From: the human T2T-CHM13v2.0 reference genome, Homo sapiens
Reading direction: 5' to 3' (one strand)
Assembly: GCF_009914755.1 (NCBI RefSeq)
Contig: NC_060939.1
Length of the DNA: 64,000 nt
The notes under the pieces are model-generated. The model was not told the DNA's origin, searched no databases, and saw only the letters and a list, made by a program, of their open reading frames with translations. This document shows, piece by piece, positions 22,879 to 49,330 of the stretch (the stretch's first letter is position 1; every line of letters starts with the position of its first letter). The translations under genes were made by a program, and so were the position numbers.

Positions 22879-23113
22879 TAATTTTTGTATTTTTAGTAGA
22901 GACAGTGTTTCACTGTGTTGGCCAGGCTGGTCTCCTACTCCTGGCCTCAAGTGATCCACCCTCCTTGGCCTCCCAAATTGTTAGGATAACAGGCGTGAGC
23001 CACCATGCCTGGCCAGCTAACGTCTTTTTTATTGCTACTATGTACCAGACACATTCATCTGGACAATATCCCTGTAACTTAGTGCCATTTTACAGATGTG
23101 ATAACTAAAATTA

Positions 23114-24785
<1,672 letters not shown>

Positions 24786-24786
24786 G

Positions 24787-25924
24787 TGGCTGGGTGGCTT
24801 GGGTGGCTGGGCTGGCTGGCTGGCTTGGCTGGGTGGCTTGGCTGGCTGGCTGGCTGGCTTCGGTGGCTGGGTGGCTTGGCTGGCTTGGCTGGCTGGCTGG
24901 CTGGCTTGGCTGGCTTGGCTGGCTGGCAGGCTTGGCTGGAATGACTGGATTGGCTGGCTTGGCTGGCTGGCAGGCTTGGCTGGAATGGCTGGCTTGGCTG
25001 GCTTGGCTGGCTGGCAGGCTTGGCTGGAATGGCTGGCTTGGCTGGCTTGGTTGGCTGGCTGGCTTGGCTGGCTTGGCTGGCTGGGTGGCTTGGCTGGCTT
25101 GGCTGGCTGGCCAGCTTGGCTACCTTGGCTGGCTGGCAGGCTTGGCTGGATTGGCTGGCTGGGTGGCTTGGCTGGCTTGGCTGGCTGGCTGGCTGGCTTG
25201 GCTGGCTTGGCTGGCTGGCAGGCTTGGCTGGAATGGCTGGCTTGGCTACCTTGGCTGGCTGGCAGGCTTGGCTGGATTGGCTGGCCTGGATGGCTTGGCT
25301 GGCTGGCTGGCTTGGCTAGCATGGCTGGCTTGCTTGGCTGGCTGGGTGGCTTGGGTGGCTTGGCTGGCTGGCTGTCTTGGCTGGCTGGCTGGCATGGCTG
25401 GCTTGGCTGACTAGGTGGCTTGACCGGCTTGGCTGGCTGGGTGGCTTGGCCGGCTGGGTGGCTTGGCCGGCTTGGCTGGCTGGCTGGCTTGGGGGGCTGG
25501 CTGGCTTGGCTGGCTTGGCTGGCTAGGCTGGGTGGCTGGGTGGCTTGGCTGGCTTGGCTGGCTTGGGTGGCTTGGCTGGCTAGGCTGGGTGGCTGTGTGG
25601 CTTGGCTCGCTTGGGGGGCTGGCTGGCTTGGCGGGCTTTGCTGGCTGGGTGGCTGGCTGGCTTGGCTGGCTGGCTGGCTTGGCTGGCTTGGCTGGCTTGG
25701 ATGGCTGGCTGGCTTGGCTTGCTTGGCTGGCTGGTTGGCTTGGCTGGCTTGCTTGGCTGGCTTGGCTGGCTGGCTGGCTTGGCTGGCTGACTGGCATGGT
25801 TGGCTTCGCTGGCTTGACTGTTTGGGTGGCTTGGCCAGCTTGGCTGGCTGAGTGGCTTGGCTGGCTTTGCTGGCTGGGTGGCTTGGCTGGCTTGGCTGGC
25901 TGGGCGGCCCACTGGCTTGGCTGC

Positions 25925-25957
<33 letters not shown>

Positions 25958-28348
25958 TTGGCTGGCTGGGTGGCTTGGTTGGCTTGGCTGGCTGGCTGTC
26001 TTGGCTGGCTGGCTGGCATGGCTGGCTTGGCTGACTGGGTGGCTGGCGGGCTTGGCTGGCTGGGTGTCTTGGCTGGCTGTGTGGCTTGGCTGGCTTGGCT
26101 GGCTGGGTGGCTTGGCTGGCTTGGCTGCCTAGGTGGCTTGGCTGGCCTGGCTGGCTGGCTGGCTTGGCTTGCTTGATTGGCTTGGCTGGCTTGGCTGGCT
26201 GGCTGGCTGGATTGGCTGGCTGGGTGGCTTGGCTGGCTGGGTCGCTTGGCTGGTTTGGCTGGCTGGGTGGCTGGCAGGCTTGGCCAGCTGGGTGGCTTGG
26301 CTGGCTGGGTGGCTTGGCTGGCTTGCCTGGCTGGGTGGCTTGGCTGGCTTGGCTGGCTGGCTGGCTTGGCTGGCTAGCTGCCTTGGCTGGCTTGGCTGGC
26401 TGGCTGGCTTGGCTGGCTTGGCTGGCTGGCTTGGCTGGCTTGGCTGGCTTGGCTGGCTTGGCCGGCTGGCAGGCTTGCCTGGCTTTTCTGGCTTACTGGC
26501 TTGGCTGGCTTGGTCGGCTTGGCTGGCTGGCTTCGGTGGCTTGGCTGGCTTGGCTGGCTGGCAGGCTTGGCTGGCTTGGCTGGGTTGGCTGGCTGGCTGT
26601 CTTGGCCGGCTTGGCTGGCTGGCTGGCTTGGCTTGCTTGGCTGCCTGTGCTGGCTGGCTGGCTGGGCTGTCTGGCTGGTTGGCTGGCTTGTCTGGCTTAG
26701 CTGCCTGTGCTGGCTGGCTGGCTGGGCTGTCTGGCTGGTTGGCTGGCTTGGCTGGCTTGGCTGGCTTGACTGACCGGCTTGGCTGGCTTTGCTCTCTTGG
26801 CTGGCTTGGCTGGGTGGCTGGCTTTGCTGGGTGGCTGGCTGGCTTGGCTGGTGGTCTGGTTTGGCTGGCTGACTGGCTGGGCTGGCTGGGCTCGCTGGCT
26901 GGCTTGCCCGGCTTGGCTGGCTGGGCTGGCTGGGCTCGCTGGCTGGCTTGCCCGGCTTGGCTGGCTGGCTGGCTGGGCTGGCTTGGCTGCCTTGGCTGGC
27001 TTGGCTGGCTGGCTGGCTTGGCTGGCTTTGCTGGCTGGCTGGCTGGGCTGGCTTGGCTGGCTTGGCTGGCTGGGTGGCTTGGCTGGCTGGCTGGTTTGCC
27101 TAGCTTGGCTGGCTGGCTTGGCTGGCTGGGTGGGTTGGCTGCCTTGGCTGGCTGGCTGTCTTGGCTTTCTAGCTGGCATGGCTGGCTTGGCTGACTGGGT
27201 GCCTGGCTGGCTTGGCTGGCTGGGTGGCTTGGCTGGCTTGGCTGGCTTGGGTGGCTGGGTGGCTTGGCTGGATTGGCTGGCCGGCTGGGCTGGCTTACAC
27301 GGCTGGCTGGCTTGGCTGGCTTGGCTGGCTGGCTGTCTTGTGTGGCTGGCTGGCATGGCTGGCTTGGCTGACTGGGTGGCTGGCGGGCTTGGCTGTCTGG
27401 GTGGTTTGGCTGGCTTGGCTGGCTGGGTGGCTGGCTGGCTTGGCTGGCTGGGTGGCTTGGCTGGCTGCGTGGCTTGGCAGGCTTGGCTGGCTGGGTGGCT
27501 GGCTGGCTTGGCTGGCTGGGTGGCTTGGCTGGCTTGGCTGGCTGGGTGGCTTGGCTGGCTTGGCTGGCTAGGTGGCTTGGCTGGCTTGGCTGGCTCGGGT
27601 GGCTTGGCTGGCTTGCCTGGCTTCGCTGGCTTGGCTGTCTGGGTGGCTTGGCTGGCTTGGCTGTCTGGGTGGCTTGGCTGGCTTGGCTGGCTGGCTGCCT
27701 TGGCTGGCTTGGCTGGCTGGGTGGCTTGGCTGGCTTGGCTGGCTGGGTGGCTGTCTGGCTTTGCTGGCTGGGTGGCTTGGCTGGCTTGGCTGGCTTGGGT
27801 GGCTTGGCTGGCTAGGCTGGGTGGCTGTCTGGCTTGGCTGGCTGGGTGGCTTGGCTGGCTTGGCTGGCTTGGGTGGCTTGGCTGGCTAGGGTGGCTGGCT
27901 GGCTTGGCTGGCTTGGGGGGCTGGCTGGCTTGGCTGGCTTGGCTGGCTAGGCTGGGTGGCTGGGTGGCTTGGCTGGCTTGGCTGGCTTGGGTGGCTTGGC
28001 TGGCTAGGCTGGGTGGCTGTGTGGCTTGGCTGGCTTGGGGGGCTGGCTGGCTTGGCTGGCTTTGCTGGCTGGGTGGCTGGCTGGCTTGGCTGGCTGGCTG
28101 GCTTGGCTGGCTTGGCTGGCTTGGATGGCTGGCTGGCTTGGCTTGCTTGGCTGGCTGGTTGGCTTGGCTGGCTTGCTTGGCTGGCTTGGCTGGCTGGCTG
28201 GCTTGGCTGGCTGACTGGCATGGTTGGCTTCGCTGGCTTGACTGTTTGGGTGGCTTGGCCAGCTTGGCTGGCTGAGTGGCTTGGCTGGCTTTGCTGGCTG
28301 GGTGGCTTGGCTGGCTTGGCTGGCTGGGCGGCCCACTGGCTTGGCTGC

Positions 28349-28381
<33 letters not shown>

Positions 28382-31300
28382 TTGGCTGGCTGGGTGGCTT
28401 GGTTGGCTTGGCTGGCTGGCTGTCTTGGCTGGCTGGCTGGCATGGCTGGCTTGGCTGACTGGGTGGCTGGCGGGCTTGGCTGGCTGGGTGTCTTGGCTGG
28501 CTGTGTGGCTTGGCTGGCTTGGCTGGCTGGGTGGCTTGGCTGGCTTGGCTGGCTAGGTGGCTTGGCTGGCCTGGCTGGCTGGCTGGCTTGGCTTGCTTGA
28601 TTGGCTTGGCTGGCTTGGCTGGCTGGCTGGCTGGCTTGCCTGGCTGGGTGGCTTGGCTGGCTGGGTCGCTTGGCTGGTTTGGCTGGCTGGGTGGCTGGCT
28701 GGCTTGGCCAGCTGGGTGGCTTGGCTGGCTGGGTGGCTTGGCTGGCTTGCCTGGCTGGGTGGCTTGGCTGGCTTGGCTGGCTGGCTGGCTTGGCTGGCTT
28801 GGCTGGCTGGCTGGCTTGGCTGGCTTGGTTGGCTTGGCTGGCTGGCTGGCTGCCTTGGCTGGCTTGGCTGGCTGGCTTGGCTGGCTTGGCTGGCTTGGCT
28901 GGCTTGGCCGGCTGGCAGGCTTGCCTGGCTTTTCTGGCTTACTGGCTTGGCTGGCTTGGTCGGCTTGGCTGGCTGGCTTGGGTGGCTTGGCTGGCTTGGC
29001 TGGCTGGCAGGCTTGGCTGGCTTGGCTGGCTGGCTGGCATGGCTTGCTTGGCTGCCTGTGCTGGCTGGCTGGCTGGTTGGCTGACTTGTCTGGCTTAGCT
29101 GCCTGTGCTGGCTGGCTGGCTGGGCTGTCTGGCTGGTTGGCTGGCTTGGCTGGCTTGGCTGGCTTGACTGACCGGCTTGGCTGGCTTTGCTCTCTTGGCT
29201 GGCTTGGCTGGGTGGCTGGCTTTGCTGGGTGGCTGGCTGGCTTGGCTGGTGGTCTGGTTTGGCTGGCTGACTGGCTGGGCTGGCTGGGCTCGCTGGCTGG
29301 CTTGCCCGGCTTGGCTGGCTGGGCTGGCTGGGCTCGCTGGCTGGCTTGCCCGGCTTGGCTGGCTGGCTGGCTGGGCTGGCTTGGCTGCCTTGGCTGGCTT
29401 GGCTGGCTGGCTGGCTGGGCTGGCTTTGCTGGCTGGCTGGCTGGGCTGGCTTGGCTGGCTTGGCTGGCTGGGTGGCTTGGCTGGCTGGCTGGTTTGCCTA
29501 GCTTGGCTGGCTGGCTTGGCTGGCTGGGTGGGTTGGCTGCCTTGGCTGGCTGGCTGTCTTGGCTTTCTAGCTGGCATGGCTGGCTTGGCTGACTGGGTGC
29601 CTGGCTGGCTTGGCTGGCTGGGTGGCTTGGCTGGCTTGGCTGGCTTGGGTGGCTGGGTGGCTTGGCTGGATTGGCTGGCCGGCTGGGCTGGCTTACACGG
29701 CTGGCTGGCTTGGCTGGCTTGGCTGGCTGGCTGTCTTGTGTGGCTGGCTGGCATGGCTGGCTTGGCTGACTGGGTGGCTGGCGGGCTTGGCTGTCTGGGT
29801 GGTTTGGCTGGCTTGGCTGGCTGGGTGGCTGGCTGGCTTGGCTGGCTGGGTGGCTTGGCTGGCTGCGTGGCTTGGCAGGCTTGGCTGGCTGGGTGGCTGG
29901 CTGGCTTGGCTGTCTGGGTGGCTTGGCTGGCTTGGCTGGCTGGGTGGCTTCGCTGGCTTGGCTGGCTAGGTGGCTTGGCTGGCTTGGCTGGCTTGGGTGG
30001 CTTGGCTGGCTTGCCTGGCTTCGCTGGCTTGGCTGTCTGGGTGGCTTGGCTGGCTTGGCTGTCTGGGTGGCTTGGCTGGCTTGGCTGGCTGGCTGGCTTG
30101 GCTGGCTTGGCTGGCTTGGCTGGCTGGCTGCCTTGGCTGGCTTGGCTGGCTGGCTGGCTTGGCTGGCTTGGCTGGCTGGCTTGGCTGGCTTGGCTGGCTT
30201 GGCTGGCTTGGCCGGCTGGCAGGCTTGCCTGGCTTTTCTGGCTTACTGGCTTGGCTGGCTTGGTCGGCTTGGCTGGCTGGCTTGGGTGGCTTGGCTGGCT
30301 TGGCTGGCTGGCAGGCTTGGCTGGCTTGGCTGGGTTGGCTGGCTGGCTGTCTTGGCCGGCTTGGCTGGCTGGCTGGCATGGCTTGCTTGGCTGCCTGTGC
30401 TGGCTGGCTGGCTGGGCTGTCTGGCTGGTTGGCTGGCTTGTCTGGCTTAGCTGCCTGTGCTGGCTGGCTGGCTGGGCTGTCTGGCTGGTTGGCTGGCTTG
30501 GCTGGCTTGGCTGGCTTGACTGACCGGCTTGGCTGGCTTTGCTCTCTTGGCTGGCTTGGCTGGGTGGCTGGCTTTGCTGGGTGGCTGGCTGGCTTGGCTG
30601 GTGGTCTGGTTTGGCTGGCTGACTGGCTGGGCTGGCTGGGCTCGCTGGCTGGCTTGCCCGGCTTGGCTGGCTGGGCTGGCTGGGCTCGCTGGCTGGCTTG
30701 CCTGGCTTGGCTGGCTGGCTGGCTGGGCTGGCTTGGCTGCCTTGGCTGGCTTGGCTGGCTGGCTGGCTTGGCTGGCTTTGCTGGCTGGCTGGCTGGGCTG
30801 GCTTGGCTGGCTTGGCTGGCTGGGTGGCTTGGCTGGCTGGCTGGTTTGCCTAGCTTGGCTGGCTGGCTTGGCTGGCTGGGTGGGTTGGCTGCCTTGGCTG
30901 GCTGGCTGTCTTGGCTTTCTAGCTGGCATGGCTGGCTTGGCTGACTGGGTGCCTGGCTGGCTTGGCTGGCTGGGTGGCTTGGCTGGCTTGGCTGGCTTGG
31001 GTGGCTGGGTGGCTTGGCTGGATTGGCTGGCCGGCTGGGCTGGCTTACACGGCTGGCTGGCTTGGCTGGCTTGTGTGGCTGGCTGGCATGGCTGGCTTGG
31101 CTGACTGGGTGGCTGGCGGGCTTGGCTGTCTGGGTGGTTTGGCTGGCTTGGCTGGCTGGGTGGCTGGCTGGCTTGGCTGGCTGGGTGGCTTGGCTGGCTG
31201 CGTGGCTTGGCAGGCTTGGCTGGCTGGGTGGCTGGCTGGCTTGGCTGGCTGGGTGGCTTGGCTGGCTTGGCTGGCTGGGTGGCTTGGCTGGCTTGGCTGG

Positions 31301-32081
31301 CTAGGTGGCTTGGCTGGCTTGGCTGGCTCGGGTGGCTTGGCTGGCTTGCCTGGCTTCGCTGGCTTGGCTGTCTGGGTGGCTTGGCTGGCTTGGCTGTCTG
31401 GGTGGCTTGGCTGGCTTGGCTGGCTGGCTGCCTTGGCTGGCTTGGCTGGCTGGGTGGCTTGGCTGGCTTGGCTGGCTGGGTGGCTGTCTGGCTTTGCTGG
31501 CTGGGTGGCTTGGCTGGCTTGGCTGGCTTGGGTGGCTTGGCTGGCTAGGCTGGGTGGCTGTCTGGCTTGGCTGGCTGGGTGGCTTGGCTGGCTTGGCTGG
31601 CTTGGGTGGCTTGGCTGGCTAGGGTGGCTGGCTGGCTTGGCTGGCTTGGGGGGCTGGCTGGCTTGGCTGGCTTGGCTGGCTAGGCTGGGTGGCTGGGTGG
31701 CTTGGCTGGCTTGGCTGGCTTGGGTGGCTTGGCTGGCTAGGCTGGGTGGCTGTGTGGCTTGGCTGGCTTGGGGGGCTGGCTGGCTTGGCGGGCTTTGCTG
31801 GCTGGGTGGCTGGCTGGCTTGGCTGGCTGGCTGGCTTGGCTGGCTTGGCTGGCTTGGATGGCTGGCTGGCTTGGCTTGCTTGGCTGGCTGGTTGGCTTGG
31901 CTGGCTTGCTTGGCTGGCTTGGCTGGCTGGCTGGCTTGGCTGGCTGACTGGCATGGTTGGCTTCGCTGGCTTGACTGTTTGGGTGGCTTGGCCAGCTTGG
32001 CTGGCTGAGTGGCTTGGCTGGCTTTGCTGGCTGGGTGGCTTGGCTGGCTTGGCTGGCTGGGCGGCCCACTGGCTTGGCTGC

Positions 32082-32114
<33 letters not shown>

Positions 32115-34340
32115 TTGGCTGGCTGGGTGGCTTGGTTGGCTTGGCTGGCTGGCTGTCTTGGCTGGCTGGCTGGCATGGCTGGCTTGGCTGACTGGGTGGC
32201 TGGCGGGCTTGGCTGGCTGGGTGTCTTGGCTGGCTGTGTGGCTTGGCTGGCTTGGCTGGCTGGGTGGCTTGGCTGGCTTGGCTGGCTAGGTGGCTTGGCT
32301 GGCCTGGCTGGCTGGCTGGCTTGGCTTGCTTGATTGGCTTGGCTGGCTTGGCTGGCTGGCTGGCTGGCTTGCCTGGCTGGGTGGCTTGGCTGGCTGGGTC
32401 GCTTGGCTGGTTTGGCTGGCTGGGTGGCTGGCTGGCTTGGCCAGCTGGGTGGCTTGGCCGGCTGGGTGGCTTGGCTGGCTTGCCTGGCTGGGTGGCTTGG
32501 CTGGCTTGGCTGGCTGGCTGGCTTGGCTGGCTTGGCTGGCTTGGCTGGCTGGCTGGCTGCCTTGGCTGGCTTGGCTGGCTGGCTTGGCTGGCTTGGCTGG
32601 CTTGGCTGGCTTGGCCGGCTGGCAGGCTTGCCTGGCTTTTCTGGCTTACTGGCTTGGCTGGCTTGGTCGGCTTGGCTGGCTGGCTTGGGTGGCTTGGCTG
32701 GCTTGGCTGGCTGGCAGGCTTGGCTGGCTTGGCTGGCTGGCTGGCATGGCTTGCTTGGCTGCCTGTGCTGGCTGGCTGGCTGGGCTGTGTGGCTGGTTGG
32801 CTGACTTGTCTGGCTTAGCTGCCTGTGCTGGCTGGCTGGCTGGGCTGTCTGGCTGGTTGGCTGGCTTGGCTGGCTTGGCTGGCTTGACTGACCGGCTTGG
32901 CTGGCTTTGCTTTCTTGGCTGGCTTGGCTGGGTGGCTGGCTTTGCTGGGTGGCTGGCTGGCTTGGCTGGTGGTCTGGTTTGGCTGGCTGACTGGCTGGGC
33001 TGGCTGGGCTCGCTGGCTGGCTTGCCCGGCTTGGCTGGCTGGGCTGGCTGGGCTCGCTGGCTGGCTTGCCCGGCTTGGCTGGCTGGCTGGCTGGGCTGGC
33101 TTGGCTGCCTTGGCTGGCTTGGCTGGCAGGCTGGCTGGGCTGGCTTTGCTGGCTGGCTGGCTGGGCTGGCTTGGCTGGCTTGGCTGGCTGGGTGGCTTGG
33201 CTGGCTGGCTGGTTTGCCTAGCTTGGCTGGCTGGCTTGGCTGGCTGGGTGGGTTGGCTGCCTTGGCTGGCTGGCTGTCTTGGCTTTCTAGCTGGCATGGC
33301 TGGCTTGGCTGACTGGGTGCCTGGCTGGCTTGGCTGGCTGGGTGGCTTGGCTGGCTTGGCTGGCTTGGGTGGCTGGGTGGCTTGGCTGGATTGGCTGGCC
33401 GGCTGGGCTGGCTTACACGGCTGGCTGGCTTGGCTGGCTTGGCTGGCTGGCTGTCTTGTGTGGCTGGCTGGCATGGCTGGCTTGGCTGACTGGGTGGCTG
33501 GCGGGCTTGGCTGTCTGGGTGGTTTGGCTGGCTTGGCTGGCTGGGTGGCTGGCTGGCTTGGCTGGCTGGGTGGCTTGGCTGGCTGCGTGGCTTGGCAGGC
33601 TTGGCTGGCTGGGTGGCTGGCTGGCTTGGCTGGCTGGGTGGCTTGGCTGGCTTGGCTGGCTGGGTGGCTTCGCTGGCTTGGCTGGCTAGGTGGCTTGGCT
33701 GGCTTGGCTGTCTGGGTGGCTTGGCTGGCTTGGCTGGCTGGCTGCCTTGGCTGGCTTGGCTGGCTGGGTGGCTTGACTGGCTTGGCTGGCTGGGTGGCTG
33801 TCTGGCTTTGCTGGCTGGGTGGCTTGGCTGGCTTGGCTGGCTTGGGTGGCTTGGCTGGCTAGGCTGGGTGGCTGTCTGGCTTGGCTGGCTGGGTGGCTTG
33901 GCTGGCTTGGCTGGCTTGGGTGGCTTGGCTGGCTAGGGTGGCTGGCTGGCTTGGCTGGCTTGGGGGGCTGGCTGGCTTGGCTGGCTTGGCTGGCTAGGCT
34001 GGGTGGCTGGGTGGTTTGGCTGGCTTGGCTGGCTTGGGTGGCTTGGCTGGCTAGGGTGGCTGGCTGGCTTGGCTGGCTTGGGGGGCTGGCTGGCTTGGCT
34101 GGCTTGGCTGGCTTGGATGGCTGGCTGGCTTGGCTTGCTTGGCTGGCTGGTTGGCTTGGCTGGCTTGCTTGGCTGGCTTGGCTGGCTGGCTGGCTTGGCT
34201 GGCTGACTGGCATGGTTGGCTTCGCTGGCTTGACTGTTTGGGTGGCTTGGCCAGCTTGGCTGGCTGAGTGGCTTGGCTGGCTTTGCTGGCTGGGTGGCTT
34301 GGCTGGCTTGGCTGGCTGGGCGGTCCACTGGCTTGGCTGC

Positions 34341-34373
<33 letters not shown>

Positions 34374-35058
34374 TTGGCTGGCTGGGTGGCTTGGTTGGCT
34401 TGGCTGGCTGGCAGTCTTGGCTGGCTGGCTGGCATGGCTGGCTTGGCTGACTGGGTGGCTGGCGGGCTTGGCTGGCTGGGTGTCTTGGCTGGCTGTGTGG
34501 CTTGGCTGGCTTGGCTGGCTGGGTGGCTTGGCTTGCTTGGCTGGCTAGGTGGCTTGGCTGGCCTGGCTGGCTGGCTGGCTTGGCTTGCTTGATTGGCTTG
34601 GCTGGCTTGGCTGGCTGGCTGCCTGGCTTTGCTGGCTGCCTGGCTGGGCTGGCTTGGCTGGCTTGGCTGTCTTGGCTGACCTGCCTGGCTGAGTGGCTTG
34701 GCTGGCTTGGCTGACTGGCTTGGCTGGCTTTGCTGGCTGGTTTTCCTGTCTTGGCTGGCTGGCTGGGCTGTCTTGGCTGGTTGGGCTGGTTGGCTGGCTG
34801 GGGCGGCTGGGCCTGCTGGCTGGCTTGGCTGGCTGGCTGGCTTTGCTGGCTTGGCTGGCTGGCAGGCTTGGCTGGCTGGTTGGCTTGGCTGGCTTGGCTG
34901 GCTTGGCCGGCTTTCCTGGCTGGCTGGCTTGGCTGGCTTTTCTGGCTGGCTGGCTTGGCTGGCTTGGCTGGCTGGCTAGCTTGCTAACTTGGCTGGCTTG
35001 GCTGGGTTGGTGGCTTGGATGGCTTGGCTGACTGGCTTGGCTTGCTTGGCTGGCTTGG
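24787..35058. repeat. ~10.3 kb GGCT/GGCTT/GGGT (AGCC/AAGCC) simple-sequence satellite with ~2.4 kb higher-order repeat
   Basis: Continuous 4-5 bp units; rare variant motifs recur at ~2.4 kb spacing (G(C/T)CCACT at 25907, 28331, 32064, 34323; CTTACACGG at 27294, 29692, 31044, 33412). Confidence 0.97.
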
Positions 35059-35665
35059 ACATTAAATATAATATATTTGGTACATTAAATATAAACATTG
35101 TATACATTAAATATAAACATCTTTTATACATCAAACATAAACATTTTATACATTAAATGTAAACATATACATTAAATATAAACATCTTGTATACATTAAA
35201 TATAAGAATACATTTGGTACATTTAATGTATACAATACATTAAATATAGACATTTTAGACATTAAATATAAGCATATATTCAGCACATTAAATGTAAACA
35301 TATTTTATACATTAAATATAAATACTGTATATGTTAAATATAAATATGTATTTTCTATATTAAATATAAATATGTATTCTGTACATTAAATATAAACATT
35401 TTCTATATTAAATATAAACATGTATTTTGGATAGTAAATATAACTATACATTGTCTATATTAAATATTAACATGTATTTTGTATATTAAACATAAACATA
35501 TATTTCCCATATTAAATATAAACATATATTTTTATGTCAAATATAAATATATATTTTATATATTAAATATAAATATGTATTTCCTGTATTAAATATACAC
35601 ATATATATTAAATATAAATATATTTTTCCATATGAAATGTAAACATATTTTAAACATTAAATATA
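35059..35665. repeat. AT-rich degenerate minisatellite (~25-30 bp unit, core ACATTAAATATAAAC), ~20 copies
   Basis: Core motif ATTAAATATAAA recurs throughout; begins immediately at the end of the GGCT array. Confidence 0.9.
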
Positions 35666-35705
35666 TTCATCTTAGATATGGCCCGTGTTGGAATGTGTAA
35701 TAGAT

Positions 35706-35877
35706 TGAGTATATAATGTCTACTCAATATAAAATTTATATTTATATATGCAGTAATGATTCAGGTTGATTGTAGTTAAGAAAAACAAGCTCCAAATTCG
35801 AAAGAAATATGTAAGAAGAGAGACAGGGAGAAAAAATAATGAGGCAGGTAAATGCAACAGACAATTCGAGACCCACA
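35706..35877 (+). repeat. Diverged paralogue of 43718-44201 lacking the Alu (empty site)
   Basis: GTATATAATGT.TACT...ATATTTATATATGCA.TAATGATTCA..TTGATT...TTAAGAAAAACAA.C.CCAAATTC...TAAGAAGAG...AAATGCAACAGA.AA.TC...GACCCA found in both places. Confidence 0.8.
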
Positions 35878-36169
35878 AGTGCAGAGCAGGCTTCCCAGAC
35901 CCGGGTAATGTCTCCTGGGCTGATAGGAAGCCCTCAACCCCCCAAGTCCTTGTCAGCCATAAACCGCCTGAGCACAGAGCCAGAGGGACCATGTTGGGGC
36001 TGGGCCTCCCGACTTCAGTTCCTCTCATTCTGTGCAAAGGAAAAACAATTCAGAATCTACAGAGGTTTAGACGTGTGTAGATGTGGACAGAGAAGTCCGG
36101 GCACAGTGGTTTACTGCCCAAGAAGACAGTGAGTCCCCGGAGGAATAGAATAATATACATCATGCTAAT

Positions 36170-36450
36170 ATATGTCATCCCAGTACTTTGGGAGGCCGAG
36201 GTGGGTGGATCACTTGAGGTCAAGAGTTCGAGACCAGCCTGGCCAACATGGTGAAACACCGTCTCTACTAAAAATACAGAAATTAGTTGGCTGCAGGGGT
36301 GGATGCCTATGATCCCAGATACTCGGGAGACAGAGGCAGGACGAACTGCTTGAACCTGGGAGGAGGAGGTTGCAGTGAGCTGAGATCATGCCATTGCACT
36401 CCAGCCTGGGGGACAGAGCAAGATCCCGTCTCAAAGAAAAAAGAAAAAAA
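36170..36450 (+). mobile_element. Alu (5'-truncated)
   Basis: Alu body with A-rich tail. Confidence 0.9.
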
Positions 36451-36872
36451 GAAGTTGTGAGTGCTAAGTTCTCTCTGGATTTTCAGGAGGCCAGTTCTCC
36501 AGTCCACGGTGTCCTGGGAGGACAGGGGTTCCTGAGGGTGAACAGAGCCTGTGCCCGGTCAGGTAGGATCACATGTCCCTGAAGTTCAGAACCCAGGAGA
36601 ATGGGGAGGGTCCTGGGGGTTCCTGCTGCATGGAGGGAAGACCCTCTTTCCACAGGGGCCCCAGAGAGCGAGAGGAAGGAGGAGGGCAGGTCAGTGAGTG
36701 TGATGGTCACAGTGGAGAGGGAAGCAGAAAGAAGTGTTCCCACAACGACACACACAGTGTCCACGCTGAAGCTACAGAGAGGACCTCTCCACCTGTGTCT
36801 GCCGCAAAGCAGTAGGGCGTCTTCTGGCAGCCCAGAGTCACCTCCAGATCCCACCTGCACCATGCTTCCTGC

Positions 36873-38530
<1,658 letters not shown>

Positions 38531-38921
38531 ATATGCTGTGTACTTATATTCTATATATTATAAAACATTTTATAAAATTATACATGTATAAAATGTTACA
38601 TAAAAATTTTAATATAATACCATTTTATTGCATATATTTCTAAATTTAATATAATGAAATTTTATATATAATAATGTATAACATTTCTAAATTTATTATA
38701 ATACAATGATATATAATTATTTTCTCATATTATAATTATACATAAGATAATTTATTATAAATAAAATTTTATATAATCTACATTTATTATAATAAAACAT
38801 ATAACACATTTCTAAATTTAATACAATAAAATACTATGTATAATAATTTATAACGTTTCAAAATTTATTATATAATTTTATTATACAATTATTTTGTACA
38901 TAATTATATATAGTATATAAT

Positions 38922-39268
38922 TGTATTTATAGAAATATAATTATGCATATACAATATGTAATTTTATTTTTACATAGTATATATGCATAATTATGTATTA
39001 ACAAATATAATAATAATTTTATATACTTATTTACATTAAGTTACATATTATATAAATGATGTTATATGTTATATATATTACATATATTTTTGCTTAATAT
39101 ATTAAATTTAATCTATAAAATTATGTATTACAAATAAAAGTGTATTTTACATATACACTACATATAACTTTATTTATATAAAAATATAAAAGTCACATGG
39201 TTAAGTTAATAAAATATATTTATATCAATCTATTCATATAAAATATACACAATGCATATTTATATAAA
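38922..39268 (+). repeat. AT-rich segment directly duplicated at 40326-40679
   Basis: Colinear TGTATTTAT.GAAATATAATTATGCA...CATAATTATGTATTAACAAATATAA...AATTTAATCTATAAAATTATGTATTACAAATAAAAGT...TATACACAATG.ATATTTATATAAA. Confidence 0.9.
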
Positions 39269-39511
39269 TACAAAGTATATAAAACTTTTACCAGTAGGAT
39301 GCAAAGAGTTGCTGACCGTCTGCAGAAATCCTGAACCTCTGGAAGCAGAATAAAATCTTACCTCCCAGTCTGCTTTGAAAGGAACAGTAAAGCAGTCCCG
39401 AACCCCAAACCCACCCTAAGGGGAGATGGGGGAGTTGGGATGGACACGTTGACCAGTGAGGACTTTCCTTTGCTGGTTTTGAGGTGTCTTAGCCCAGAAG
39501 CTAAGACGGGA

Positions 39512-39850
39512 AGTGATTCTGGAGCAGGTGAGCTGATCACAAGCCTGAGCCAAGAATCCATGGAGCTCATAAATAGCAGAAGCCAGGACCCTGTGCAAAT
39601 CCTTCTGAAATATCCCCCGTTTACTGGGCTCCTAGGGGTGGGGAAGAAAAATTCCCTGACATTTCGGCCTCAGGGAAAGAGAGAGACATCCCACTGGCCG
39701 GAAGCCTCTGCTATTTTTCAGAAGACACCTGGGGCATCACCCTTTCCCAAATGACGGTGATTTTCAGAGTGGTTCACTTTTTGGAGAGACATTTCTGCCC
39801 TGGAGATCCATACATATTGAATCCAAACGAATACTTTTTAATTAAAAAAA
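39512..39850 (+). repeat. Left arm of a ~340 bp inverted repeat (right arm 40680-41018)
   Basis: ORFs 39440..39754(+) and 40776..40970(-) give near-identical peptides (SQDPVQILLKYP.FT.LLGVGKKNSLTFRPQGKRET.HWP), and the DNA is reverse-complement colinear. Confidence 0.93.
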
Positions 39851-40325
39851 ATTAAACATTAGAAAGTTCAATATTGAGGCAGCTACGAGTTTGAATTCCT
39901 CATTTTTCCTAAATGCATGTTGTCAAAATCTGTATTGCATTTAGTAACTACCTATGTTTCTAATGTATATAAGGTTACACAATGTTTTCTTCTTTTTCTC
40001 CTCCTCAGGGTCAGAATTTGAAATAAAAGTTTTGGAAAGAAAAAACACTCTTGTCTGTTTGTGCAAAAATAAAAGAACCCATATTTTAAGAATATTTTAA
40101 GATAAATACAAATTGTGTGTGTGGGGGGGTTGCTTATAAGAATTCTTCATATCCTAAATCAAAGATAGATCTTGTTATTAACCAGAAAACAAAATGTGTG
40201 TGTATAAATGTACAACACTCTTACACTCACACAAACACAGGCACACATGCGCACACACACATTCACGCACTCACTGATGTACTCACACAAACACAGGCAT
40301 TCATGTATAAATACACACCTAAGCA

Positions 40326-41018
40326 TGTATTTATGGAAATATAATTATGCACATACAACATATAATTTTATTTTTACATAGTATATATACATAATTATGT
40401 ATTAACAAATATAAGATCAATTTTATTATATACTTATTTACATAAAGGTATATATGATATAAATGATGTTATATGGCATGTATATATCACATATAACTTT
40501 GCTTAGTATATAAAATTTAATCTATAAAATTATGTATTACAAATAAAAGTATATTTTACATATACACTATATATAACTTTATTATTTATATGAACTATAA
40601 AAATCATATGTTTATATTAATAAAATATATTTATATCAATATATTAATATAAAGTATACACAATGTATATTTATATAAAAATTTTTAATTAAAAAATATT
40701 CATTTTGGTTCAATATGTATGGATCGCCAGGGCAGAAACGTCTCTTCAAAAGGTGAACTGTTCTCAAAATCACCGTCATTTGGGAAAGAGTGATGCCCCA
40801 TCCGTTTTCTGAGAAACAGCAGAGGCGTATGGCCAGTGGGGTGTCTCTCTCTTTCCCTGAGGCCGAAAAGTCAGGGAATTTTTCTTCCCCACCCCTAGGA
40901 GCTCTGTAAACCGGGGATATTTCAGAAGGATTTGCACAGGGTCCTGGCTTCTGTTGTAAATGAGCTCCATGGATTCTCAGCTCAGGCTTGTGATCAACTC
41001 ACCTGCTCCAGAATCACT
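40326..41018. repeat. Composite duplicate: direct copy of 38922-39268 fused to inverted copy of 39512-39850
   Basis: Junction at ~40680 lies on the palindrome TTTTTAATTAAAAA. Confidence 0.9.
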
Positions 41019-42200
<1,182 letters not shown>

Positions 42201-42297
42201 CAGGTAGAACAGGCCTGCATTACCTGATAACGCAGTTAAATCAGACGTGATGCTGCCTACCGAGGAGACCTGGAGGCTTCCCATGAATGGGCTTTCA

Positions 42298-43030
42298 GAA
42301 GAGAGGTCTCTGGGTGCATTTGGTGACACCCCAGGCAGTGGGGGAGACGTCCAGGCTGGAAGGCCAGCCACAGCCAGCTCTGCTCAAGGATGCCACGTCC
42401 ATTTGCTTCAGTAGGATATGCACCCTGGTAACCCAGGTTCCTGCCTCTCCAGGAAACCCCACTGAGGTCAGCACATCCCCCCAGGTTTAGAAGGGGTCTC
42501 TGGGTGCATTTGGTGACACCCCAGGCAGGGGGGGGACATCCAGGCTGGAAGGCCAGCCACACCCAGCTCTGCCCGCAGATGCCATGTCCATTTGCTTCAG
42601 TAGGATCTGCATCCTGTAAACCCTGGTTCCTGCCTCTCCAGGACACCCCACTGAGGTCAGCACACTGCCCAGGTTTAGAAGGGGTCTCTTGGTGAAATGT
42701 GGTGACACCCCAGGCAGAAGGGGGGACGCCACAGCCAGCTCTGCCCGCGGATGCCACATCCATTTGCTTTAGTAGAATCTGTACCTTGGATTCCCAGGTT
42801 CCTGCCTCTCCAGGACACCCCACTGACGTTAGCACACCCTCCAGGTTTACAAGCGGTCTCTGGGTACATTTGGTGACACCGCAGGCAGAGGGGGGACGCC
42901 ACAGCCAGCTCTGCCCGCGGATGCCACGTCCATTTGCTTCAGTAGGATCTGCACCCTGTAAACCCTGGTTCCTGCCCCTCCAGGACACCCCACTGAGGTC
43001 AGCACCCCCCACCCCCCACCCCCAGGTTTG
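42298..43030. repeat. GC-rich four-copy tandem repeat, ~172-190 bp unit
   Basis: GGTCTCT.GGT...T.TGGTGACACC starts near 42305, 42495, 42683, 42855; copies 3-4 lack the TCCAGGCTGGAAGGCCA segment found in copies 1-2. Confidence 0.93.
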
Positions 43031-43584
43031 TCCAGCTTCGCTGTCTGGGGAGAGACACAGAAAGACCACATTCGGTGGAATTCTGGCTATAACCTTTTGT
43101 GGCCGGCAAGAAGGATCACCAAGCTGTCCTGTTACCTCGCTGGAGTGATCACTGGTTTCACGCTTGGCCCCCGTGCAGTGAGTGCCTGGGCCAGGCTCGA
43201 TTCCTGGAGCTCCGGTGAAATTTGGGCTTGGAGCTCATGCCTGCACCATCCAGAAAGCAGAAGGCAGCCGGCCCGGGCTGTACGGTTTGTAGAATCAGAG
43301 AGAACACTGCTTGCCTTCATGTCTGTACCACAATAAATCTGCCAACTGCAGTCAAAGTCTCTGGATTCCTGACCCCTCATTTTATTTTGTCTATTACGGA
43401 GTGGAAGGAGTGAGAAAGATTTTGCTTCCTATTTTGTTTTGCAAAGTGTTTCTAAGAAAAACAACCCATGTTCTGAAAATGAGATTCTGAGTGTCCCCTG
43501 GGCGTGATGAAAACAAATTTTGGGAATCCAAGGGCCTGAGAGGCAGAGTGAATGTCATTTGCATTTCCCTGCGAATGACAAAGT

Positions 43585-43715
43585 CACTTTTTATTTATTA
43601 TTATTATTATAGATTCAGGGGATCCACGGGCAGCTTTGTGACCTGAGGATATTGTACGTTGCTGAGGTTTGGGGTATGAATCATCCCGTCACCCAGGCAC
43701 TGAGCATTGTACATT
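43585..43715 (-). mobile_element. L1PB-like 3' end fragment
   Basis: T-rich tail followed by AGATTCAGGGG...GCTGAGGTTTGGGGTATGAAT.ATCCCGTCACCCAGG. Confidence 0.7.
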
Positions 43716-43844
43716 CCTGAGGTATATAATGTGTACTAAAAATAAAATGCATATTTATATATGCACTAATGATTCAACTTGATTCCTTGTAATTAAGAAA
43801 AACAAACCCCAAATTCTAGAGGAGTTCTAGAATATATAAGAAGA

Positions 43845-44256
<412 letters not shown>

Positions 44257-44339
44257 TCAACCCTTGTACCCCCGCCCCTGCTTCCTGCTCTATTAGTACT
44301 GAGGGTCTGTGGTGCCCCTTCATTGTGTCCAGGTGCAGG

Positions 44340-45370
44340 CAATGTTTAGCTCCCACCTATAAGCGAGAACATGTGGTATTTGATTTTCTGTTCCTGGCGT
44401 TAATTCACTAAGCATAGTGCCCTTCAGCTTCATCCATGTGACTACAAAGGGCATGATTTTATTCTTGTTCATGGCTGTGTAGTATTCCATGATGCGGAAG
44501 GACCACATTTGCTTTATCTAATTGAGAACATGTGGTATTTGATTTTGTTTCTGGCATTAATTCACTAAGCATAATGCCCTTCAGCTTCATCCATGTTGCT
44601 GCAAAAGGCATGATTTTATTCTTGTTCATGGCTGTGTAGTATTCCATGATGCAGAAGGACCACATTTGCTTTATCTAGTGAAGAACATGTGGTCTTTGAT
44701 TTTCTGTTCCTCATATTGATTCACTAAGCATAATGCCCTCTGGCTGCATCCATGTGGCTGCAAAGACAAGATTTTATTTTTTTCATCACTGTGTAGTATT
44801 CCGTGGTGTAGAAGGGCCACATTTGCTTTATCCAGTTGAGGACATGTAGTATTTCATTTTCTGTTCCTGGCATTAATTCACTAAGCATAATGTCCTTCAG
44901 CTGTGTCCATGTGGCTGCAAAGGACATGATATTATTCTTTTTCATGGCTGCATAGTATTCCATGATGCAGAAAGACCACATTTGCTTTATCTAGTGGAGA
45001 ACATGTGGTATTCGATTTCCTTTTCCTGGCATTAATTCACTAAGCATAATTCCCTTCAGCTGCGTCCATGTGGCTGCAAAGACATGATTTTATTCTTTTT
45101 CATGGCTGTGCAGTATTCCATGGCGTAGAAGGGCCACAATTGCTTTATCCAGTCAAGAACATGTGGTATTTGATTTTCTGTTCTTAATTCATTAAGCATA
45201 ATGCCCTCCAGCTACATCCATGTGGCTGCAAAGGATGTGATTTTATTCTTTTTCATGGCTGTGTAGTATTCGATGCTGTAGAAGAACCACTTTTGCTTTA
45301 TCCGGTACCCTACTGATGGGCAACTAGGTTGATTCCATGACTTTCCTATTGTAAGTCATGCTGTGACGAA
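44340..45370 (-). repeat. Six-copy 158-bp tandem repeat derived from the L1 ORF2 C-terminus/3'UTR boundary
   Basis: Unit starts (GAGAACATGTGGT-like) at 44365, 44524, 44681, 44838, 44997, 45155; minus ORFs repeat MEYYTAM.KN.IM.FAATWM.L..IMLSEL, the L1 ORF2 end; last copy continues into ordinary L1. Confidence 0.93.
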
Positions 45371-48289: not shown

Positions 48290-49330
48290 GTAATTCCCCA
48301 AATATCTGAGAATTTTCTTTTCTTTAAGTCACAGTCATCCTGGCAGAAGGCTGTAGGTCCCTTTGGGGAAGACTGGGAAAAAGATTAACAATGTAAATTT
48401 TTGGCAATGTAGCAGCGTACTTCCCCAAGATCACCCAGCCTCCCCTTCACTTAAGGGGTTGTGGGCCTGTGAACTGGCTCAAGTCTGGGAATTGATTGAG
48501 GGTTTTAGATCTGTGTTTCATTAATTTGAGTTAGTCTTTTATTCAGTTGACCTAGAATTCTTCATTTTTTAAACAACAACTAAGACTTTGGTACAGCCCA
48601 TTAGCTCTCCCTGTGGATACCATGGACTACACAATGCCATGGGTGTCTGTGAGTCAAATCATTCTGACTGCTGCTTTGACACTGCTTTCCACTGTGGTGA
48701 CCACACCCACCTCATCTTTGGTGATTAAGGACAGCCCATGTTCCCTGCCACCCCAGGATTCAATTATCCTCATTTTACTTAAAGATACCAGTCCAGTGGC
48801 TGCAGTTCCTGCTGTAACATTTTGCCTACTGAGAGCACAAGCTCAAAGCTCTTCCAGGATACTGGGCTCATCTCACAATATTCTTTCTCATGATCGTTGT
48901 GAGGAGTATGTTCTGTAGACCCTTCAGTGTGAGTGAGCAGGTCTGACATAATAAATCCAGTCTCCCTGAGTTTTTGCATACCTTTCTGTACACATAAACC
49001 AAGGAAGTTGTGGCATCTCAACTTTATGTACCTTAGGTAAACTCTGATTCTGTTTCAGCCAACCAACCAAGTCACCAAACAAATAAGCAAACAGCCAACC
49101 AATCAACCAACAAGCAAGCAAGCAAGCAACAAACCAACCAAACAACCAAGCAAGGAAGCAAGCACCACCAACCAAGCAAGCAACCAACCAAGTAACCGAT
49201 CAAACCAACCCTTGGAGCCCTTTCTAAAGCTTTGACCTACAACTCTGAGTCCAGAATCTCTGTTTAGTGGGCCAACATTAATAAATTTAGCCTAATCCAA
49301 CTTTATGTTACTTTCACCATGGTGCCACAC
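48290..49330 (-). mobile_element. ERVL (HERV-L/ERVL-type) internal gag remnant, interrupted by a microsatellite
   Basis: Minus-strand fragments KVEMPQLPW, GMQKLRETG, WIYYVRPAH resemble ERVL gag (EMP.LPW..VEEGIQRLREIG..EWI.H.RP); frameshifted. Confidence 0.75.
49056..49210. repeat. Degenerate (AACC/AAGC)n microsatellite
   Basis: Read directly from sequence. Confidence 0.9.

What the first reader, a model, noticed from the sequence alone, without database searches (positions are those of the whole stretch)
25400..34620. Hidden higher-order structure in the GGCT satellite: ABC-ABC-BC-ABC-A
Seen: marker A (G(C/T)CCACT) at 25907/28331/32064/34323, B (CTTTTCTGGCTTAC) at 26483/28929/30233/32636, C (CTTACACGG) at 27294/29692/31044/33412. 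This gives a ~2.4 kb unit plus one ~1.3-1.35 kb partial duplication. Core copies are nearly identical, while both ends (24787-25400, 34620-35058) carry their own variants. Inference: recent unequal crossover in the core with older edges, a miniature of alpha-satellite HOR layering; probably a large VNTR.
Basis: partly seen in the sequence, partly recalled or inferred. Interest (0 to 1): 0.7.

Follow-up and report, generated by a model that had tools for sequence, protein, structure and literature searches.

The report
Nested duplications in a CAGC satellite
A 10-kb simple-sequence satellite near the chromosome 15 centromere is built from near-identical kilobase blocks, most likely an older 2.4-kb repeat that was later re-duplicated as a 3.7-kb block; such block patterns are already known from other human satellites, so this is a well-resolved but ordinary case.

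Summary
The pattern is real: all 12 markers sit where stated, and exact internal matches reach 720 bp against at most 137 bp in 40 null arrays. The strongest period is 3.73 kb, not 2.4 kb. The extra BC block groups with BC1, not with its neighbour, so the simplest history is a 2,424-bp unit followed by one out-of-register duplication of about 26331-30095 at a 33-bp microhomology. A sister copy of the locus 1.55 Mb away (flanks 11 mismatches in 3,963 bp) carries the same unit in a 22-kb, differently scrambled array. It lacks that junction and six changes that pair copies 3.73 kb apart. Three features need further exchanges. The edges are unamplified, not a decayed older layer: the left edge is as close to the monomer pattern as the core, and core motifs occur in 97%-identical paralogues. 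The array belongs to the diverged (CAGC)n satellite listed by Warburton 2008. Kilobase periods in simple satellites are a known class (nested tandem repeats), not alpha-satellite higher-order repeats. Length polymorphism between people was not testable.

The parts
24787..35058 (+). Whole diverged (GGCT/GGCTT/GGGT)n array, (CAGC)n on the minus strand, about 10.27 kb
   Evidence: TRF periods 4, 9, 26; monomer counts
24787..25480 (+). Left single-copy edge with local 44-292 bp duplications; orthologous to the first 668 bp of the sister array, which then carries about 0.9 kb that the window lacks
25481..27904 (+). Unit 1 (A1 B1 C1), the 2,424-bp nested repeat unit
27905..30095 (+). Unit 2 (A2 B2 C2'), truncated in C at the junction
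   Evidence: 16 substitutions in 2,169 bp against unit 1
26331..30095 (+). First copy of the 3.73-kb block (end of A1, B1 C1 A2 B2 C2')
   Evidence: continuous diagonals at offsets 3750/3733/3707/3720; 8 substitutions in 3,571 bp
30063..30095 (+). Junction of the out-of-register duplication, inside a 33-bp stretch that is identical at 26331-26363 and 27665-27697
   Evidence: junction probes absent from the sister array
30096..31637 (+). Partial unit B3 C3, a copy of B1 C1
   Evidence: 3 substitutions in 1,273 bp against BC1; 6 substitutions and 3 indels against BC2
31638..33951 (+). Unit 3 (A3 B4 C4), a copy of A2 B2 C2 up to about 33710, then a terminal short C tail shared with the sister's last unit
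33952..34621 (+). Terminal partial A4 with a 118-bp local duplication and three private substitutions; 34015-34715 is missing from the sister's right end
34622..35058 (+). Right single-copy edge
23110..24786 (-). Tandem truncated Alu fragments (Alu identity recalled); the array starts about 10 bp past an Alu poly(T). The chr22-derived duplicated segment ends at 23108
35059..35667 (.). AT-rich repeat that begins the duplicated segment matching C23/C24 near 0.69-0.70 Mb (read as pseudoautosomal region 1); joined to the array at a shared TTGG
   Evidence: the same junction at 10 loci

Best explanation
The array is a diverged (CAGC)n satellite whose core is a 2,424-bp unit in tandem, and the ABC-ABC-BC-ABC-A order most likely arose when a 3.73-kb stretch (about 26331-30095) was later duplicated out of register, probably by misaligned exchange at a 33-bp identity shared by the end of A and the inside of C. 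Shown: the two periods, the pairing of B1C1 with B3C3 and of A2B2 with A3B4, the 33-bp identity at the junction, and the sister array that has the 2.4-kb head-to-tail join but not the 3.73-kb join. Inferred: the 2.4-kb unit predates the inverted 15q11 segmental duplication and the 3.73-kb event followed it; at least one or two further in-register exchanges (conversion or unit loss) occurred; the process is neutral, recombination- or template-switch-driven block turnover, which recurs in every long array of this family with its own period. The edges are the part not swept into the amplified block, and each sister lost different single-copy sequence there.
For: Offsets and maximal matches. Nulls. 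Copy pairing. Six changes absent from all probed sister copies pair blocks 3.73 kb apart: 26215 (A2, A3); the 35-bp deletion, 26686 and 27019 (B2, B4); 27553 and 27596 (C1, C3). Divergence order: 8/3,571 for the 3.73-kb pair, 11/3,963 for the sister flanks, 16/2,169 for unit 1 v unit 2 (p=0.005 and 0.014 against the unit pair). A 33-bp identity has p about 0.001 for a random jump and 0.005 for an in-phase jump. The 4 of 4 array segments of 10 kb or more that were read whole have 72-78% duplicated 60-mers, with top offsets 3733, 15451/2584, 4104 and 2241; a 6-kb stretch on chr16 shows 2983.
Against: Three features do not fit one event: site 25633 pairs A1 with A3; 26953 T of B3 is in 2 of 5 sister copies; the C2 tail is the long form while the C4 tail is the short form shared with the sister's last unit. 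Absence from the sister could reflect loss there, not later origin. The 3.73-kb pair and the sister flanks do not differ significantly in divergence (p=0.82). Of the distinct jumps resolved, most overlap by 11-52 bp but two show none (-3, -1). No reads and no other haplotypes were available.
Confidence: 0.78

Rival explanations
1. A two-unit (4.85 kb) duplication followed by a 1.1-kb deletion through the same 33-bp identity, or trimming from a longer ancestral array like the 22-kb sister, gave the same order.
For: It gives the same copy pairing. The C2 and C4 tails need a second event anyway. Both sisters lost single-copy sequence.
Against: It needs more events. The six changes that pair copies 3.73 kb apart are absent from the sister, so the window array is not a simple subset of it.
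Confidence: 0.13
2. One reading: four 2.4-kb units plus a local 1.3-kb duplication of BC, with older layers pushed outwards as in alpha satellite.
For: Marker order and the 1304-1352 offsets exist; the right edge is more diverged; the edges are single-copy.
Against: BC3 groups with BC1 at all five shared BC sites and with BC2 or BC4 at none of them. The left edge is not more diverged. Core motifs with rare variants are shared with four 97%-identity paralogues (178-297 bp against at most 30 in shuffles). No CENP-B core motif (recalled motif) on either strand.
Confidence: 0.04
3. The periodicity is an assembly artefact (false duplication or mixing of paralogues).
For: Low-complexity array with a near-identical sister locus; reads were not examined.
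Against: The copies differ by 8 substitutions and 3 indels; the junction and 14 or more alleles are absent from the sister, so sister reads cannot have built them; other loci show their own periods. From recall, the array is shorter than typical HiFi reads.
Confidence: 0.02
4. The block order is kept by selection for a function (protein binding, transcription or a G-quadruplex scaffold).
For: Strong strand asymmetry; the plus strand folds more stably than base shuffles in 4 of 4 120-bp tests.
Against: The sister and the other arrays have unrelated block orders and lengths from 2 to 30 kb. No annotated gene overlaps it. G4Hunter reaches 1.2 in 3% of windows and there is no three-tier quadruplex motif, PRDM9 13-mer or CENP-B core (recalled motifs).
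Confidence: 0.03

Closest known systems
Diverged (CAGC)n satellite at 2p11.2 and 22q11.1 (Warburton et al. 2008, PMC2588610; passages, outline and section 6 read)
   Same: Same monomer periods (4, 9, 26); related arrays found here at C2:87.40-87.44 Mb and C22:17.24 Mb.
   Different: Their table lists only the 2p11.2 and 22q11.1 arrays, with no higher-order note for either, and section 6 names none for CAGC. The 15q11 arrays and their block structure are not in the passages seen.
Nested tandem repeats of HSat2/HSat3 (Altemose et al., bioRxiv 10.1101/2021.07.12.452052; passages read) and the irregular 1.6/2.5-kb repeats of an Xp22.33 VNTR (PMC2588610)
   Same: Kilobase units built on a diverged simple repeat, with periodicity that varies locally.
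   Different: Different monomer; only about four units; sits in a segmental duplication with a datable sister copy.
Block mutations in tandem repeats (TRCompDB, bioRxiv 10.1101/2024.08.07.607105; passages read)
   Same: Multi-motif block duplication attributed to unequal crossover, reported at 29,964 loci; mutation rate raised in segmental duplications.
   Different: The blocks here are kilobases long and nested; the catalogue covers non-centromeric repeats and its text has no 'chr15' hit; I did not open its supplements or database.
Alpha-satellite higher-order repeats and layered expansion (same Altemose preprint)
   Same: A homogeneous amplified centre between unamplified flanks; nested duplications.
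   Different: No ordered 171-bp monomers, no symmetric age gradient, no evidence of a kinetochore role; edges under 1 kb.
GC-rich CAGGG repeats at pericentromeric duplication junctions (Eichler 1999, Horvath 2005; seen only as citations and through PMC2566985 passages, otherwise recalled)
   Same: A GC-rich interspersed array at the join between two duplicated segments, spread over pericentromeric 1q, 2p, 15q, 16p and 22q.
   Different: Different monomer; a causal role in duplication is not shown here.

Membership tests
Diverged (CAGC)n satellite | Monomer periods 4/9/17/26 of CAGC type | tested here: met
   TRF periods 4, 9, 26; offsets 9, 17, 26 among 12-mers; Warburton's table
Diverged (CAGC)n satellite | Common descent with the 2p11 arrays | tested here: met
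   Same array/AT-rich junction at 10 loci; shared rare-variant motifs
Nested tandem repeat | Multi-kilobase unit on a diverged simple repeat, not a fixed count of equal monomers | tested here: met
   2,424-bp unit of 560 tokens, mostly 4 and 5 bp; definition
Nested tandem repeat | Periodicity varies locally and between arrays | tested here: met
Alpha-type higher-order repeat with layering | Ordered set of distinct, similar-length monomers | tested here: not met
   Mixed 4/5-bp monomers with irregular sub-duplications
Alpha-type higher-order repeat with layering | Symmetric gradient of older, more diverged flanks | tested here: not met
   Left edge p=1.0, right edge p=0.01 uncorrected; core sequence is old
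Alpha-type higher-order repeat with layering | CENP-A occupancy of the youngest layer | not testable with these tools
   No chromatin data; no CENP-B core motif by pattern
VNTR | Length polymorphism among human haplotypes | not testable with these tools
   One genome held; only paralogue differences seen
GC-rich duplication-junction repeats | Located at the join of unrelated duplicated segments | tested here: met
   chr22-derived segment ends at 23108, C23/C24-derived segment starts at about 35055; neither source stretch fetched (9 kb each) holds the array
GC-rich duplication-junction repeats | Enrichment at junctions over chance, or a causal role | not tested
   The 10 junction copies look like one inherited event; no genome-wide control was run

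The most novel reading that the evidence does not exclude
The (CAGC)n satellite was seeded in, or repeatedly recombines with, one 25-bp spot of antisense Alu (4 of 10 distinct array ends seen lie there), acts as a landing site that fuses duplicated segments in pericentromeric DNA, and rebuilds its kilobase block order within a few million years; the two sister pairs in 15q11 would then be a small, fully readable model of how higher-order satellite structure is born.
Probability: 0.25. Interest if true: 0.55.

Novelty: new member of a known kind. Interest (0 to 1): 0.27.

Why it matters
It adds a resolved example of how simple satellites gain kilobase periods. Two arrays copied in the same inverted duplication diverged from 10 to 22 kb and from 2.7 to 15 kb while their flanks changed by 0.2-0.6%, so junctions can be ordered and dated, which is hard in megabase satellites. 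The arrays are short enough for single long reads, so rate and mechanism can be tested in pangenome and pedigree data. No function or disease link is suggested.

Tried and rejected
Local 1.3-kb duplication of BC2: rejected by copy pairing. Chance periodicity: rejected by two nulls. Older decayed edges: not found on the left. Coding: stop-free frames up to 1,181 codons follow from the lack of A on one strand; the longest ATG frame is 365 codons of low complexity and no gene is annotated, so not pursued. G-quadruplex, PRDM9, Chi-like (4 hits) and CENP-B motifs gave nothing notable. A first count of 12 substitutions for the 3.73-kb pair included 4 misaligned positions at the 71-bp tail difference; I recounted on 26377-29990. 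The automatic jump finder kept only jumps with 80-90 bp exact flanks and missed several junctions visible. Literature: motif strings and family names were searched; only PMC2588610 names the CAGC arrays. Hoyt, Altemose and Vollger preprint texts gave no passage on them (CAGC was searched in the first two only), nor did PMC2566985, PMC3814877; PMC4411736 concerns another minisatellite. Horvath 2005, Bailey 2003 and one further recalled id were not held, and no supplements or browser tracks were seen, so a prior description there cannot be excluded. The chr16, chr22:17.24 Mb, chr1 and two chr2 arrays were read only in part or not at all.

Full report
Observation. The window holds one array at 24787-35058 with monomer periods 4, 9 and 26, made mainly of GGCT (1,041 of 2,368 tokens), GGCTT (524) and GGGT (165). 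All 12 markers lie at the stated positions. Exact internal matches reach 720 bp and cover 74% of the array at 150 bp or more; 20 monomer shuffles and 20 order-3 Markov arrays reach at most 57 and 137 bp. The amplified core is 25481-34621 and both ends are single-copy.

Structure. The strongest offsets are 3733, 3750 and 3720, ahead of 2398 and 2424. The maximal matches form one continuous diagonal from about 26377-29990 to 30127-33710. Pairwise alignment shows that the extra BC block is a copy of BC1 (3 substitutions, 1 indel in 1,273 bp), not of its neighbour BC2 (6 substitutions, 3 indels), while BC4 groups with BC2 and A3 with A2. The join lies in a 33-bp stretch that is identical at the end of A (26331-26363) and inside C (27665-27697); identities this long span about 0.1% of random jumps and 0.5% of in-phase jumps. 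The 3.73-kb pair differs by 8 substitutions in 3,571 bp (0.22%, 95% interval 0.10-0.44), the 2.4-kb units by 16 in 2,169 (0.74%), p=0.005. With a recalled rate near 0.5e-9 per base per year that is roughly 2 and 7 million years; this is rough, because conversion between monomers and pre-existing allele differences disturb the clock.

Sister locus. Both flanks match an inverted copy at C15:19.54-19.56 Mb, with 11 mismatches in 3,963 bp. Its array is 22,061 bp against 10,268 bp by the same rule. It covers 97% of the window array in shared 40-mers, against 17-29% for nine other regions. It contains the same C-to-A head-to-tail join, so the 2.4-kb unit likely predates the split, but it is broken by other jumps, some at the internal 1,160-bp and 118-bp homologies. 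It lacks the window's junction (4 of 4 long probes). Six changes are absent from every probed sister copy and pair blocks 3.73 kb apart: 26215, the 35-bp deletion, 26686, 27019, 27553 and 27596. Against a single event: 25633 pairs A1 with A3, 26953 T occurs in B3 and in 2 of 5 sister copies, and the C4 tail is the short form found in the sister's last unit while C2 has the long form. One or two further exchanges are therefore needed. The timing is an inference: the sister could have lost these lineages, and the 3.73-kb pair is not significantly younger than the split (p=0.82).

Edges. Edits per base against the three-monomer pattern are 0.058 (left edge), 0.059 (unit 1) and 0.094 (right edge); p=1.0 and p=0.01 uncorrected. 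Unit 1 shares 178-297 bp of rare-variant matches with four chr1/chr2 paralogues (shuffles at most 30 bp), and none with the 18.25-Mb array, so the core is old sequence recently amplified. The edges are not fixed: the window lacks about 0.9 kb that follows the sister's first 668 bp, and the sister lacks window 34015-34715. This is amplification of a middle part, not an age-graded layering.

Family and setting. Arrays of this type occur on C1, C2, C15, C16 and C22 (counts are lower bounds). A second sister pair at C15:18.25 and 19.29 Mb, with flanks 21 mismatches in 4,785 bp, has 2,744 bp with no duplicated 60-mers against 15,196 bp with 72%; about 3.3 kb of the long array has no 70-bp match in the short one, so loss as well as gain occurred. 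The four segments of 10 kb or more read whole have 72-78% duplicated 60-mers, each with its own offsets; the five complete segments under 6 kb with both ends seen or nearly so have 0-31%. The window array lies between a segment 97% identical to C22:31.52 Mb, ending at 23108, and a segment 90-92% identical to C23/C24 near 0.69-0.70 Mb, which I read as pseudoautosomal region 1. Neither source stretch holds the array, nor does the C22:22.66 Mb copy. The array/AT-rich join occurs at 10 loci and looks like one inherited event. Four of ten distinct array ends seen fall within about 25 bp of the same place in an antisense Alu, next to its CCAGGCTGG (Alu identity recalled); six do not. Origin inside an Alu and joining by microhomology both fit.

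Mechanism. Most likely neutral block turnover: the monomers give many 10-50 bp identities; a misaligned exchange or template switch at one of them duplicates or deletes a kilobase block; repetition makes nested periods. The geometry is shown; crossover versus replication is not resolved. The plus strand folds somewhat better than base shuffles (4 of 4 tests), but G-quadruplex, PRDM9 and CENP-B motifs are absent or rare.

Comparison. Warburton 2008 lists diverged (CAGC)n arrays of 25.7 kb at 2p11.2 and 10.2 kb at 22q11.1 without a higher-order note, and describes kilobase higher-order repeats in other simple satellites and VNTRs. Altemose et al. call such units nested tandem repeats and separate them from true higher-order repeats. 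TRCompDB reports block duplications at 29,964 loci. Eight searches found no description of the 15q11 arrays; several older duplication papers were not held and no supplements were read.

Verdict. Real, partly reinterpreted, and a new member of a known kind. Interest 0.27; the sister pairs and the Alu-anchored ends are the parts worth following.

Noticed in passing
L011-L013 (G000:C15:19538727-19560789, minus): Sister array of 22,061 bp built from the same unit, with nested offsets 15451, 2584, 6548, 11568 and 3883.
   Followed up: partly
L030 and L014-L015 (C15:18253108-18255851 and 19284917-19300112): Second sister pair, 2.7 v 15.2 kb. In both pairs the distal copy is the longer one. The flank after the 18.25-Mb array matches window 41869-44973 at 90-96%.
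   Followed up: partly
window 23110-24786: Tandem truncated antisense Alu fragments (periods 227-292 and 47 bp); similar Alu runs of 6-7.6 kb separate paired arrays on C2.
   Followed up: partly
L016-L020 (C2:87413351-87443519): About 30 kb of array with a strong 2,241-bp period; probably the array that Warburton lists at 25.7 kb in an older assembly, but boundary rules differ, so no length difference is claimed.
   Followed up: partly
L032 (C16:32674001-32680000): Clean 2,983-bp period, 86% duplicated 60-mers; the array continues to at least 32.698 Mb.
   Followed up: partly
window 35059-44973: Duplicated segment matching C23/C24 at 0.68-0.70 Mb (88-92%), with 11-15 autosomal copies on C1, C2, C15, C16 and C22.
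   Followed up: partly
window 49059-49210: Short degenerate CCAA/GCAA repeat just before the predicted lncRNA LOC105379203; loosely like the minus-strand monomer.
   Followed up: no
window 42556-43010 and 44365-45302: Tandem repeats of 172 bp (2.7 copies) and 157 bp (6 copies).
   Followed up: no
window 24787-35058: CpG observed/expected is 0.08 despite 67% GC, and A makes up about 2% of the plus strand.
   Followed up: no
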